Part shown: positions 3,001 through 5,976 of the stretch, piece by piece
How positions within the stretch are numbered: the first letter of the stretch is position 1
How the letters are laid out: every line of letters begins with the position of its first letter
Virus record (IMG/VR): IMGVR_UViG_2690316115_000013
Location: 1 to 5,976 of that record
Direction: 5' to 3' (one strand)
DNA from: a virus
Taxonomy: Duplodnaviria; Heunggongvirae; Uroviricota; Caudoviricetes
DNA length: 5,976 nucleotides
Position numbers: made by a program

Positions 3001-5976
3001 CTCCTTTAGTTTCAGAATTCAAATTGTCTTGCCCGCAGGCTTTTCAGCATTGGCATGGCCCGCTGGATAACGGAACTTGACATGTCGAGACGTGTTACCT
3101 CCCTCAGTAGCGCGTCTCTGTTCTTCGTCACCATGTAGATGGTCTCAAACGCAATGTCATACAGCTTGTTCGTGTATGAGGAGTTCAGCTCTTTCATAAT
3201 GGGATACAGGTGTTTGCTGATGTCCTGGGCTTTTTCCATCCAGAGCTGCATGTAGCAAAGGAGGATGATTTCTTCGGCTGTGAATTGTGGCTGAATCTGC
3301 GGCTGCTGTTCGGTTGGTGCTGTTTTTCCCTGGCTGAAATAGCAGTCTTCCAGTTTTTCGAATACCTCCCACGCCCGATCGGTTTCGAGCATTTTTGCGT
3401 GACGGGCTGCGCCGCGTTCTGTCCAGAGGATGAGGGAGCGGGCATTTTTACCAACTAACCCGATTGTTTCGGGTCTGTTCTTAAACTCGCGTAATTCGTT
3501 TTTTTCAATTTTAAAGTAATGCTTTCCGGGCATGAATCGCGTCGTGTTGTTCAGAAAGTTATCAGAAATGTTTTTGATTTTTGTTCCGTAAAGGTGAGCC
3601 AACAGTTCAGTAGTAATTACGGGGATCTGGTTATAGGTAACAGGGGAAAGGTTTTCGACAGAAATTTGAACAGCCATAATGACCTCGCGTTTCGATAATT
3701 TTTACCTCGCCACCGTCAGGTGCTAATCATCGTGGTGGCGAACTGTGCGGGGTTAGCACTACCGGTCGAAACATCCGGCGAGCCTTTCGGCTCCCCCACA
3801 CAGCCCGCCATAAATCGCGAATGTGACTGTGCTTAGCGCATAAAAAAACCGCCAGCGCGGTTATGCACCGTTTCGATATCCGGGGTGCTAATCCCGACGC
3901 CAGGTTTTGCTGGCGCGTGAGGAATATAGCCCCGAACACGCGACGTTGTCAAACTGATGGCATTGCAGATCCCTACGCAATGTAACACTATGTGTTATAC
4001 ATTAATAACGGAACAAAAAATGCGCATTTTTAAAAACGCCTGGTTTGAGCGATTTGCACGCAAAACAAAATATCCGACCAATCACTGCGCGAAATTGTTA
4101 AACAGGCTGATAACGGGCTTATCTCAGCAAACCTGGGTAACGGCGTTATCAAGCAACGTCTGCCACGAGTCGGTGGCGGCAAATCTGGCGGTTATCGCAC
4201 AATCATTTTCTATCGCGTCGGCACAAGGGCCTTTTTCGTATATGCATACGCAAAAAATGAACGTGAAAATATAACCGCTACTGCGGAAAGTGCATTTCGG
4301 AAGGCGGCTCCTCACGTACTCAATCTAACAGATGAACAACTGGCACAACTGATTCTACAGGGTCAGTTTACGGAGGTACCCAATGAGTAAAAATTACCGC
4401 AGTGATGCGCTTGCATCCGTACATGAAATGATGGAATCGCTTCATGATATCGGCGCAGTAACGAAACAGACTATGCGAGAATTCGATGAAACTTGTCTCC
4501 AGCCAGCGCCGGTAATGTCTCCGGAAAGGATCCGTGCACTGCGCGAACGAGAGCATCTGTCTCAACCTGTTTTTGCCAGATACCTCAACGTCAGTAAAAA
4601 CCTGATATCAGACTGGGAACGTGGTGTAAAACGGCCGGGAGGTGCCGCTCTTCGCCTTCTTTCAGTCGTAGAGAAAAACGGGATCCAGGTAATATCATGA
4701 TACTCCAATACAACAAAACCCGCCGAAGCGGGTTTTCATTAGAAGCACCTTTAGTTTTGCTGTTCTATTTTAAGCTTGATAGTTTCATACAAAACAATAG
4801 TTGCGCCTGTTTTACATAATTCCCGGCTGTCATACGCACGAGACCAATAACACAACCAGTTCTCGAGATCTTCTCGAGTATAGGTTTTGCAGGCCAGTCC
4901 CTCTGCCATTTCCACGATTTCATCGCCTGGTGCTGTTAACTCATAGCCATTCAACAACAAGAAGACATAACCAGCCATCATAGCTGTTCGTTTGTTTGCA
5001 TTAGCAAATGGATGATTCTGAATCAGACTTTCAATCAATACTGATGCCAGTACAAACATGTCATTAGTCTGTTCATACCATCGAACCATGCTGGGACGAG
5101 ACTGAGAAGAACTTAAATTATCAACACTCAGCACACTAACAGGTTCATCTGGTGTTTGAAGCTCAATTAAAAGGCGATTAATTTCGGTAAGATCATCAAA
5201 CGAAAGGTAGTGCACTCCTTCAACAATCTCAGCCATAGAGCACAATACCCATCATTACACTTTTGAAAGTTCTTCCATTGCCTTCTCGTAACGAGAAAAA
5301 CCGAAATCGAAAGCATTTTTCACCTGCTCACGATGAGTGCAATTTTCATCGATAGCCGGGCGCGGAGCTGCCACAACGCTTTTATCGCGAGGGGGAATAG
5401 TCAATCGCGGGTGTTTTTTTAGTGCGTAGCTCATTGGGTGTACCCTTACTTCTCCGTCCTGTTCTTTAACAAAAATCAAGTCAATACAAAATTAGTCAGG
5501 CTAATGTTGTTAGCATAGCCTAATACCAATCGTATTCACAACCACAGTAAGTGAAAAAACCCGCCGAAGCGGGTTAAGTGCGGGTGCGTTGAGGATGCCT
5601 GACACATCAGAGGTGGCGAGGGATTTCTCCCTCGCCTGGTCTCTTACTCCTCAGGTTCGTAAGCTGTGAAGACAGCAACCTCCGTCTGACCGGTTCGGAT
5701 TCGTACCTCGCAGAGGTCTTTCCTCGTTACCAGTGCCGTCACTACGACGGTAATACAGATGACGATCAGGGCGACTAACATCGCCTTTTGCTGCTTCATA
5801 GCCTGCTTCTCCTTGCCTTTCGGCGCGTAAGAGGCTAACCTACATGTGTCTAGCATGAAATTGGCCTCAGATTAATGTTAGGCGTCTTGCAGGACGCGTA
5901 ATGTTAACTGGGGCTTTTCTCTGTCTGCCTTACGGTGGCATGCCCGAGGCAGACAGCCTCAAGCACCCGCAGCAAT

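What the first reader, a model, noticed from the sequence alone, without database searches (positions are those of the whole stretch)
4751..5434. Doc toxin paired with a small upstream ORF that is not recognisably Phd-like
Doc carries the kinase-type motif HPFANANKRTA. The 59-aa ORF 9 nt upstream has no Phd/YefM, AbrB or ribbon-helix-helix signature I can recognise, and no VbhA-like inhibitory motif ([S/T]xxxE[G/N]). Its start is ambiguous (ATG at 5434 with SD, or TTG at 5479). It may be a non-canonical Doc antitoxin family.
Basis: partly seen in the sequence, partly recalled or inferred. Interest (0 to 1): 0.45.

Follow-up and report, generated by a model that had tools for sequence, protein, structure and literature searches.

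The report
Unannotated mini-antitoxin partner of prophage Doc
A 59-residue "hypothetical" protein always sits directly upstream of one subfamily of Doc toxins in phages and prophages; it matches no known antitoxin family, is most likely Doc's antidote, and the two genes form an 821-bp add-on cassette in an E. coli lambda-like prophage.

Summary
On the minus strand the window carries a 59-aa ORF (5434-5255) followed by a Doc-family gene (5236-4751) with the motif HPFANANKR. The window is an E. coli lambdoid prophage nin region.

The small protein hits no Pfam, NCBIfam, PADLOC or PDB family. A profile comparison with P1 Phd gives 0.9% probability. It lacks the VbhA/YhfG inhibitory motif. Every source names it "hypothetical" or "bacteriophage protein".

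It is nevertheless a real, conserved gene. About 39 representative sequences of 38-95 aa carry two conserved parts: an N-terminal (R/K)LxIPxRDK motif and a C-terminal amphipathic helix. No member has a fused DNA-binding domain.

It lies immediately upstream of the same Doc subfamily in 80/80 viral contigs, 15/16 metagenome loci, 7/7 genomes and 2/2 Pseudomonas phages, across at least 19 different neighbourhoods.

In E. coli the pair is a present/absent 821-bp cassette bounded by a duplicated 20-bp terminator hairpin.

Best reading: a minimal type II antitoxin that neutralises Doc through its C-terminal helix, as the C-terminal helices of Phd do, but not homologous to Phd. Neutralisation, toxicity and regulation are inferred, not shown. 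This is a new variant of a known kind, of moderate interest.

The parts
4735..5555 (-). 821-bp two-gene cassette (moron-like insertion) in the prophage nin region
   Evidence: E. coli HCP4S3_I4 (L014) has the HTH gene, a single hairpin and hokD contiguous. The window aligns to it over 3568-4734 and 5556-5976, and the two alignments overlap by 20 bp in L014. 168 complete E. coli genomes match the empty junction over at least 80% of its length (top hits as one contiguous piece); 120 match the filled site.
5556..5575 (-). Upstream copy of the 20-bp direct repeat AAAACCCGCCGAAGCGGGTT (+ strand); the hokD-side terminator hairpin
   Evidence: Terminator-like hairpin at 5575-5558. Identical sequence to 4715-4734.
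5435..5555 (-). Upstream control region carried by the cassette. Candidate extended -10 TGgTATTAG (TG 5528-5527, hexamer 5525-5520). Weak 6-bp palindrome AGGCTA/TAGCCT (5521-5516 / 5503-5498). AAGGG Shine-Dalgarno-like site about 9 nt before the ATG.
   Evidence: The block (T/A)GGTATTA(A/G) recurs about 85-95 nt upstream of the ATG in loci with unrelated flanks: window, L012, L067, L070, L071, L074, L075. The consensus sigma-70 scan found no minus-strand promoter here, so the promoter is inferred. The 6-bp palindrome is about what chance gives.
5255..5434 (-). Small ORF, 59 aa, putative Doc antitoxin (WP_000119356.1, 'hypothetical protein'). Basic (pI 9.3). N-terminal RLxIPxRDK motif (residues 10-18). 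C-terminal amphipathic helix (residues 34-57).
   Evidence: (PHROG 2208, function unknown). AF2 gives a disordered 1-33 and a helix 34-57, pLDDT 77 overall and above 90 in the helix. The hydrophobic moment exceeds 99.4% of shuffles.
4751..5236 (-). Doc-family toxin gene, 161 aa, acidic (pI 4.5). Motif HPFANANKR. About 35-aa C-terminal extension with conserved WLxxWSRxYDxRxLC.
   Evidence: No Shine-Dalgarno sequence before the start in any lineage, and gaps of only 3-18 nt, which suggests translational coupling.
4715..4736 (-). Terminator hairpin after doc; the downstream copy of the 20-bp direct repeat (4715-4734)

Best explanation
The two genes are a bicistronic type II toxin-antitoxin cassette carried as a moron in a lambdoid prophage.

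Doc is an EF-Tu-phosphorylating kinase of the Fic/Doc fold that arrests translation. This rests on family membership and an intact catalytic motif.

The 59-aa protein is its cognate antitoxin. It is largely disordered when free. Its strongly conserved C-terminal amphipathic helix (Q37-V59: V38, A41, F42, F46, Y49, M53, L56) folds onto Doc and blocks it. The C-terminal helices of P1 Phd, Salmonella Phd, E. faecalis Phd and the PanA 'Phd-C' element work this way. This step is an inference by analogy.

The protein has no folded DNA-binding domain. Its basic N-terminal tail carries the near-invariant IPxRDK motif. The tail makes a second specific contact, most likely with the very acidic Doc and possibly with its subfamily-specific C-terminal extension; operator DNA is the alternative.

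Doc translation is coupled to termination of the small ORF, since there is no Shine-Dalgarno sequence and the gap is 3-18 nt. That keeps antitoxin in excess.

The cassette brings its own upstream region and terminator, and moves as a unit among phages of Enterobacterales and Pseudomonas. Its likely benefit is prophage retention or abortive-infection-type defence. That last point is speculative.
For: Doc identity:
- TIGR01550 at 122 bits and Pfam Fic, with the motif present.
- The closest solved relative is E. faecalis Doc 9VZC at E 1e-12, then P1 Doc.

Coupling of the small family to Doc:
- Small-family ORF directly upstream of Doc in 7/7 genome loci.
- 80/80 viral contigs (in L074 the called Doc ORF overlaps it).
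- 15/16 metagenome loci retrieved with a profile of distant small proteins; the 16th small ORF lies 413 nt from the contig end and no complete downstream ORF was called.
- 2/2 Pseudomonas phages, where the small protein is 57-59% and Doc 54-56% identical to the window's.
- At least 19 upstream and at least 22 downstream flank clusters.
- Contexts include the nin region, tail/baseplate genes, DinI-UmuDC and integrase-tRNA.

Unit behaviour: a present/absent cassette with a precise empty site.

Selection: dN is 0.05-0.16 in the helix while dS is saturated or above 1.

Structure: a single helix 34-57, amphipathic at p = 0.006.

Precedent:
- A 22-residue C-terminal Phd peptide alone binds Doc at 73 pM and inhibits it (PMC9207808).
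- SUMO-Phd-C alone neutralises Doc, and single-domain antitoxins made only of a neutralising element are known (PMC10440598).
- E. faecalis Phd has no sequence similarity to P1 Phd, yet uses a bent C-terminal helix (PMC13034048).

No Rfam family lies in the cassette, so no known RNA antitoxin is present.
Against: - There is no experimental or structural evidence of binding or neutralisation.
- My AF2 run on an artificial fusion was uninformative (pLDDT 51), because the alignment I supplied was mis-aligned.
- Sequence similarity of the helix to the Phd C-termini is only marginal: gapless score 4, shuffle p about 0.03, and hhalign not significant.
- The charge pattern is reversed relative to many TA pairs: the antitoxin is basic and the toxin acidic.
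- No convincing sigma-70 promoter or operator was found in the window's own upstream region.
- One metagenomic locus (L006) has the small gene followed by an unrelated 76-aa ORF instead of Doc.
Confidence: 0.7

Rival explanations
1. The small protein is a highly diverged Phd/YefM, AbrB or RHH antitoxin, so this is an ordinary Phd-Doc module whose antitoxin the HMMs miss.
For: Position and size are typical of such antitoxins. The C-terminus-anchored hydrophobic spacing F-x3-F-x2-Y-x3-M-x2-L-x3-end matches the Phd hot-spot spacing F56, M60, H63, L67, L70 (PMC9207808, p about 0.03).
Against: No Pfam hit in 37/37 members. No NCBIfam, PADLOC or PDB hit. hhalign against Phd gives 0.9%. AF2 shows no folded N-terminal domain and no beta strands. 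The 39 representatives are all 38-95 aa, with no member fused to a DNA-binding domain. Only 33 residues precede the helix, too few for a Phd/YefM or AbrB fold.
Confidence: 0.07
2. The small protein is mainly a DNA-binding autoregulator. Its basic N-terminal arm with IPxRDK would dimerise through the helix and bind the promoter, and it would contribute little to direct neutralisation. Doc would then be controlled transcriptionally or by another factor.
For: The N-terminal half is basic (pI 9.6) and its motif is near-invariant. In the Morganellaceae lineage a TTGACT-17-CATTAT promoter carries an 8-9-bp palindrome, TAATGWAA-N6-TTWCATTA, in its spacer with a symmetric compensatory change. Other lineages have 7-8-bp palindromes over the -35.
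Against: The palindromes differ completely between lineages while the protein motif is conserved. The window itself has only a 6-bp palindrome, which is chance level. The most conserved part of the protein is the helix, not the arm. No known DNA-binding fold is predicted. Autoregulation and neutralisation are also not mutually exclusive.
Confidence: 0.12
3. The pair is not a toxin-antitoxin system. The small protein is an adaptor, activator or chaperone needed for Doc function, for example targeting a phage or host substrate. Alternatively, Doc of this subfamily is not toxic to its host.
For: Strict co-occurrence proves functional linkage only, not antagonism. This Doc subfamily has an unusual conserved C-terminal extension and is very acidic. 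Dickeya Doc overexpression barely affected E. coli growth (PMC8198452), so not every Doc is strongly toxic.
Against: The gene order (small gene first), the tight spacing without a Shine-Dalgarno sequence for Doc, the intact kinase motif and the moron context beside two other TA modules all fit type II TA logic. All characterised Doc partners are inhibitors.
Confidence: 0.08

Closest known systems
Phd-Doc of bacteriophage P1 (PDB 3K33, 3DD7) and Salmonella Phd-Doc
   Same: Antitoxin gene first and toxin second. Doc carries HxFx(D/N)(A/G)NKR. The neutralising element is expected to be a C-terminal helix of about 22 residues at the very C-terminus, with the same a/d hydrophobic spacing. Carried by a temperate phage.
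   Different: No detectable homology between the small protein and Phd. There is no Phd/YefM DNA-binding domain: 33 disordered residues replace about 50 folded ones. Doc is only distantly related (E 1e-4 to P1 Doc), is 35 aa longer at the C-terminus, and is acidic.
Enterococcus faecalis Phd-Doc (PDB 9VZC; PMC13034048)
   Same: The closest solved Doc (E 1e-12). It has the same N-variant motif (H-x-F-x-N-A-N-K-R). Its antitoxin is likewise unrelated in sequence to P1 Phd but binds through a bent C-terminal helix.
   Different: EFPhd has a folded AbrB-like beta-dome DNA-binding domain of 55 residues. The window protein has none. The profile of the small family does not hit any 9VZC chain.
PanA_Phd-C:Doc of Corynebacterium doosanense, and the 'linear neutralisation element' model (NetFlax, PMC10440598)
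   Same: The concept is that Doc is neutralised by a short exchangeable helical element, which works even when detached from its globular domain.
   Different: There the element is fused to a Panacea domain. Here it would be essentially free-standing, with a conserved short N-terminal motif.
VbhA-VbhT and YhfG-Fic (class I Fic antitoxins)
   Same: A small (about 55-62 aa), mostly helical protein encoded directly upstream of a Fic-fold enzyme.
   Different: The defining inhibitory motif [S/T]xxxE[G/N] is absent. Only 2 of 37 members have chance matches, at non-equivalent positions. The toxin is Doc-type (NKR), not an AMPylating GNG(K/R)-type Fic.
Minimal antitoxins lacking a DNA-binding domain, such as PaaA2 (own knowledge)
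   Same: A protein of about 60 aa, intrinsically disordered, that neutralises by folding on the toxin.
   Different: The toxin family differs (ParE2). PaaA2 operons carry a separate regulator gene (paaR); no third gene is conserved here.

Membership tests
Doc toxins (Fic/Doc fold; TIGR01550 DOC_P1, PF02661) | Profile match above the curated cutoff | tested here: met
   TIGR01550 at 122.1 bits against a cutoff of 38.65. PF02661 at 44.4 against 24. PHROG 577 'Doc-like toxin' at 1e-50.
Doc toxins (Fic/Doc fold; TIGR01550 DOC_P1, PF02661) | Catalytic motif HxFx(D/N)(A/G)NKR | tested here: met
   HPFANANKR at residues 75-83. Motif definition from PMC13034048. The motif residues H75, F77, N79, N81, K82 and R83 are invariant in the 16-sequence alignment, and A78 and A80 are at least 90% conserved.
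Doc toxins (Fic/Doc fold; TIGR01550 DOC_P1, PF02661) | Phosphorylates EF-Tu and arrests growth | not testable with these tools
   Needs an expression or toxicity assay and a phospho-Thr382 blot.
Phd/YefM antitoxins (PF02604) | Profile match, or profile-profile similarity to Phd | tested here: not met
   No Pfam hit for 37/37 members. No NCBIfam hit. hhalign of A2 against the P1 Phd alignment A4 gives 0.9% probability.
Phd/YefM antitoxins (PF02604) | Folded N-terminal dimeric DNA-binding domain of about 50 aa | tested here: not met
   AF2 shows residues 1-33 without secondary structure and only the helix 34-57. Foldseek against the PDB gave no match.
Phd/YefM antitoxins (PF02604) | C-terminal helix that binds the Doc groove | tested here: inconclusive
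   An amphipathic C-terminal helix is predicted. The hot-spot spacing matches, but the score is marginal (p about 0.03). The complex model failed.
AbrB/MazE/SpoVT-type Doc antitoxins (EFPhd, TasA) | Beta-strand swapped-hairpin or beta-dome DNA-binding domain | tested here: not met
   No Pfam or PDB hit. No strands in the AF2 model.
VbhA/YhfG class I Fic antitoxins | Inhibitory helix motif [S/T]xxxE[G/N] | tested here: not met
   Absent from the window protein. Present in 2/37 family members, at unrelated positions.
Type II toxin-antitoxin module (generic) | Two small co-oriented genes, tightly spaced, and conserved as a pair in different genomic contexts | tested here: met
   Gaps of 3-18 nt. 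Pairing in 80/80, 15/16, 7/7 and 2/2 loci, across at least 19 contexts.
Type II toxin-antitoxin module (generic) | The antitoxin binds and neutralises the toxin and is proteolytically labile | not testable with these tools
   Requires co-expression rescue, pull-down and stability assays.
Type II toxin-antitoxin module (generic) | Autoregulated promoter with an operator | tested here: inconclusive
   Good promoter-plus-palindrome candidates exist in the Morganellaceae lineage. The window has only a conserved TGGTATTAG block and a 6-bp palindrome.
Phage moron | A discrete insertion between conserved phage genes, present or absent among related phages, with its own terminator and promoter | tested here: met
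   An exact empty site and a 20-bp duplicated hairpin. Terminator found. The promoter is only a candidate.

The most novel reading that the evidence does not exclude
This would be a free-standing, two-pronged Doc inhibitor with no DNA-binding domain. The C-terminal helix docks in the Phd groove. The near-invariant N-terminal I-P-x-R-D-K segment reaches the active site of the acidic Doc as a pseudo-substrate or product mimic of the EF-Tu loop G-G-R-T382-V, with Arg-Asp mimicking Arg-phosphoThr. Operon control would then rest on translational coupling or host and phage factors rather than on conditional cooperativity at an operator. That would define a new antitoxin class for Fic/Doc kinases.
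Probability: 0.12. Interest if true: 0.6.

Novelty: new variant of a known kind. Interest (0 to 1): 0.4.

Why it matters
The exact 59-aa protein is seen on at least 1000 contigs. About 2% of complete E. coli genomes carry the cassette (120 of 5426), including the O104:H4 outbreak lineage. Yet the protein is labelled "hypothetical" everywhere.

Recognising it as the Doc partner has three consequences:
- It would fix the annotation of an apparently orphan toxin.
- It would add a third antitoxin architecture for Doc, domain-less, beside the Phd/YefM and AbrB-like types.
- It would give a natural 59-aa template, with a 23-residue conserved helix, for the peptide-inhibitor work already done on Salmonella and Enterococcus Doc.

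The natural filled and empty prophage pairs also offer a clean genetic system to test what a prophage-borne Doc does, whether prophage retention or phage defence.

Tried and rejected
(1) AF2 on an artificial fusion. I joined the small protein, XX, the natural 5-residue linker and Doc, with an unpaired alignment (A3). MAFFT aligned the N-terminal half of the Doc homologues onto the antitoxin segment. I had submitted the job before checking. The result was pLDDT 51 and pTM 0.30 and is discarded.

(2) My idea that the C-terminal 22 residues are homologous to the Phd C-terminus. A gapless C-terminus-anchored alignment is the best register, but it scores only 4, with p about 0.03. hhalign is not significant. 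I keep it as an analogy, not homology.

(3) Foldseek of the monomer model against the PDB gave no hits, as expected for a single helix.

(4) A PDB profile search gave only spurious hits: ribosomal protein S25 and a RES-domain protein, at E above 0.2.

(5) The word-indexed protein search found only 17 clusters, which under-represents the family. The exhaustive HMMER search and the locus scans showed it is broader.

(6) A genome-contig scan with the single Doc protein returned only 7 loci.

(7) The full family alignment A2 was too divergent for the search for related loci. I used a sub-alignment, A7, instead.

(8) Literature. Dickeya phd-doc is a canonical PHD-domain pair and not this family. 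The E. coli SLING survey lists unnamed Fic partners but does not describe this one. No paper describing this protein was found.

(9) The neighbouring HTH gene as the Doc antitoxin is rejected. It belongs to the adjacent RelE/ParE pair and is present in the empty-site genomes.
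Full report
WHAT THE WINDOW IS.
From base 108 to the end, the window matches the E. coli ML35 chromosome with 2 mismatches. It is the nin region of a lambdoid prophage.

The minus strand carries, in order:
- hokD with its sok RNA;
- the small ORF and Doc;
- an ORF6N antirepressor-like gene, then ninB and ninE;
- a second antirepressor (Ant) gene and a KilAC-domain antirepressor gene;
- a DUF1364/YbcO-family gene and rusA.

On the plus strand, converging on doc, lies a RelE/ParE-like gene followed by an HTH gene.

THE OBSERVATION.
The Doc gene (4751-5236, 161 aa) is an unambiguous Doc-family member:
- TIGR01550 scores 122 bits against a cutoff of 38.65.
- Pfam Fic scores 44 bits.
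- PHROG 577 'Doc-like toxin' scores 1e-50.
- HPFANANKR at residues 75-83 fits the published Doc motif HXFX(D/N)(A/G)NKR (PMC13034048).

Its closest solved relative is Enterococcus faecalis Doc (9VZC, E 1e-12). P1 Doc follows at E 1e-4.

The 59-aa ORF (5255-5434) gave nothing in any curated library:
- Pfam and NCBIfam: no hit.
- PADLOC: no hit.
- PDB sequences searched with a family profile: no meaningful hit.
- PHROGs: family 2208, 'unknown function'.
- The [S/T]xxxE[G/N] motif is absent.

Two details are sharpened. The small ORF starts at ATG 5434, because all homologues start at the equivalent Met and the upstream extensions produced by ORF calling are unrelated to one another. Doc most likely starts at ATG 5236, where MAEIVEG aligns with the N-termini in Serratia, Kluyvera and Ewingella and with PGAP's call. 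The spacer is then 18 nt, after the tandem stops TAA TGA.

THE SMALL ORF IS A REAL GENE AND A REAL FAMILY.
An exhaustive HMMER search of 1.84 billion representatives with the family profile found 39 sequences at E up to 1e-3. Two of these are very long proteins matched only by short repeated stretches. The other 37 are 38-95 aa, and none is fused to another domain.

The alignment (A2) shows two conserved elements separated by a variable, Pro-rich linker:
- (R/K)L-x-I-P-x-R-D-K, with I13, P14 and R16 at least 90% conserved;
- a C-terminal block, H-x-x-Q-V-x-N-A-F-x-x-x-F-x-R-Y-x-K-A-x-x-x-L-S-K-V, that ends exactly at the C-terminus.

Against seven homologues, synonymous sites are saturated in five comparisons and dS exceeds 2 in the other two. 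dN is 0.14-0.29 overall, 0.05-0.16 in residues 34-59 and 0.21-0.43 in residues 1-33.

AlphaFold2 with the family alignment predicts no structure for residues 1-33 and a single helix at 34-57, with pLDDT above 90 in the helix. The helix is strongly amphipathic: its hydrophobic moment is 1.42 against 0.58 for shuffles, p = 0.006. Its hydrophobic stripe runs V38, A41/F42, F46, Y49, M53, L56, V59.

The protein is basic (pI 9.3), and its N-terminal half carries the charge. Doc is very acidic (pI 4.5, net charge about -12).

THE SMALL ORF IS NOT PHD, ABRB, RHH OR VBHA.
- None of the 37 members hits any Pfam family.
- Profile-profile comparison with a P1 Phd alignment gives 0.9% probability.
- Foldseek finds nothing.
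- Thirty-three residues before the helix are too few for any of the known antitoxin DNA-binding folds.

I noticed that, aligned without gaps from the C-terminus, the hydrophobic positions F42, F46, Y49, M53 and L56 coincide with the Salmonella Phd hot spots F56, M60, H63, L67 and L70 (PMC9207808). This register is the best of all offsets. However, the score is marginal, with shuffle p about 0.03. I treat it as functional analogy, not homology.

THE TWO GENES ARE A UNIT.
Every relative of this Doc that I could retrieve has a small-family ORF immediately upstream:
- 7/7 genomes from Serratia, Providencia, Morganella and Kluyvera.
- Ewingella and two metagenome contigs.
- 80/80 IMG/VR viral contigs (in L074 the called Doc ORF overlaps it).
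- Two Pseudomonas phages, Sirocco and LPPA56, where the antitoxin is 57-59% and Doc 54-56% identical to the window's.

The reverse search started from distant small proteins. In 15 of 16 metagenome loci the next gene is this Doc subfamily. In the 16th the small ORF lies 413 nt from the contig end and no complete downstream ORF was called.

The flanks fall into at least 19 upstream and at least 22 downstream sequence clusters. The neighbourhoods are as different as the nin region, tail/baseplate genes, DinI-UmuDC and integrase-tRNA.

The one exception is L006. There the small gene is followed by an unrelated 76-aa ORF.

Intergenic gaps are 3-18 nt, and no lineage has a Shine-Dalgarno sequence in front of doc. 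This points to translational coupling.

IN E. COLI THE PAIR IS A MORON.
A junction query made by joining the two flanks across one hairpin matched the top-listed genomes as a single contiguous piece, for example HCP4S3_I4 at 98.4% identity, and 168 complete E. coli genomes over at least 80% of its length. By comparison, 120 genomes carry the filled site.

Aligning the window with that empty site places the insertion at 4735-5555 (821 bp). It is bounded by a perfect 20-bp direct repeat, AAAACCCGCCGAAGCGGGTT (4715-4734 and 5556-5575). This repeat is the stem-loop of a rho-independent terminator.

The cassette therefore carries about 120 bp of upstream sequence, the two genes and a terminator.

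Within the upstream sequence, the block TGGTATTA(A/G) recurs in six other lineages with unrelated flanks. In the window, TG is at 5528-5527 and the hexamer at 5525-5520. It may be an extended -10 element. The generic sigma-70 scan found no promoter, so this is only a candidate.

Operator-like palindromes are convincing in the Morganellaceae lineage. There TTGACT-17-CATTAT has TAATGWAA-N6-TTWCATTA in the spacer, with a symmetric T/A compensatory change. They are not convincing in the window, where the arms are only 6 bp.

No Rfam family maps inside the cassette.

HOW IT MOST LIKELY WORKS.
What is shown:
- Doc family membership with an intact catalytic motif.
- A conserved, selected small gene.
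- Obligate pairing and unit mobility.
- A predicted helix-plus-disordered-tail architecture.

What is inferred from established knowledge:
- Doc phosphorylates EF-Tu Thr382 and stops translation (Castro-Roa et al. 2013, as cited in PMC9207808 and PMC10440598).
- Every characterised Doc inhibitor acts through a short C-terminal helical element. That element is sufficient on its own and can be attached to unrelated domains.

I therefore propose that residues about 34-59 are the neutralising element. They would fold on Doc. The basic IPxRDK tail would give a second contact, either on the acidic Doc, perhaps on its subfamily-specific C-terminal extension WLxxWSRxYDxRxLC, or on DNA. I put 0.7 on 'cognate antitoxin acting through the C-terminal helix'. 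The role of the N-terminal motif and the mode of regulation remain open.

COMPARISON AND NOVELTY.
The toxin is a new member of a known family. The genetic logic is ordinary type II TA. The modular 'linear neutralisation element' idea is published (PMC10440598).

What is new is the partner. It is a widespread, domain-less family of about 59 aa, absent from Pfam, NCBIfam, PADLOC and the PDB. It is named 'hypothetical' or 'bacteriophage protein' by all sources, and the exact sequence is seen on at least 1000 contigs. I found no paper describing it.

I rate this a new variant of a known kind, with interest 0.4.

LIMITS.
Nothing here tests binding, toxicity or regulation. My only complex-model attempt was spoiled by a bad alignment that I submitted before checking. 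The literature library covers open-access papers only.

Noticed in passing
window 4020-4390 (+): The RelE/ParE-family toxin gene next to the Doc cassette is frameshifted in this window and in ML35. There is a 1-nt deletion in an A-run near 4062-4066 relative to the intact 123-aa gene of E. coli HCP4S3_I4 (L014 1070-1441). PGAP annotates a truncated CDS (4052-4390) whose first codon translates as Ile. The partner HTH antitoxin gene (4383-4700) is intact, so this looks like a toxin-dead TA pair with an orphaned antitoxin.
   Followed up: partly
window 2146-2344 and 3731-3929 (-): There are two copies of a P1 immI-like RNA control module: C4 antisense RNA, isrK and the a1/b1 targets, all above Rfam gathering scores. 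Each lies just upstream of an ORF6N/P22AR antirepressor-like gene (1410-2093 and 3012-3677). The two modules are diverged duplicates: about 75% identity over about 360 bp, plus a 111-bp stretch at 94.6% inside the genes.
   Followed up: no
window 5644-5968 (-): This is a complete hok/sok type I TA locus: hokD with an overlapping mok-like 70-aa ORF (5644-5856), and sok RNA at 5794-5968 (117 bits). This 2-kb stretch of the nin region therefore stacks three toxin-antitoxin modules: type I hok/sok, the Doc cassette, and the RelE-HTH pair.
   Followed up: partly
window 4715-4734 and 5556-5575: The same 20-bp terminator stem-loop is duplicated at both ends of the cassette. The single-copy state exists in 168 E. 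coli genomes. This suggests that morons enter or leave here by recombination at a shared terminator hairpin.
   Followed up: yes
L006 859-1286 (metagenome contig Ga0157366_1006901): This is the only locus where a small-family gene (60 aa, 64% identical) is not followed by Doc. An unrelated 76-aa ORF with no family hit follows it, downstream of a tail-fibre-like gene. It could be an orphan antitoxin or a partner swap.
   Followed up: no
L008, L010, L011, L064, L079, L096 (about 60-100 nt upstream of the small ORF): Morganellaceae versions of the cassette have a near-consensus promoter, TTGACT-17-CATTAT. Its spacer holds an 8-9-bp palindrome, TAATGTAA-N6-TTACATTA or TAATGAAA-N6-TTTCATTA. The two arms change together, as expected of a dimer-bound operator.
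   Followed up: partly
protein cluster of P0144: A 374-aa JGI protein (P0239) sits in the same 90%-identity cluster as a 56-aa family member. It may be a gene-calling artefact or a fusion. I did not inspect it.
   Followed up: no
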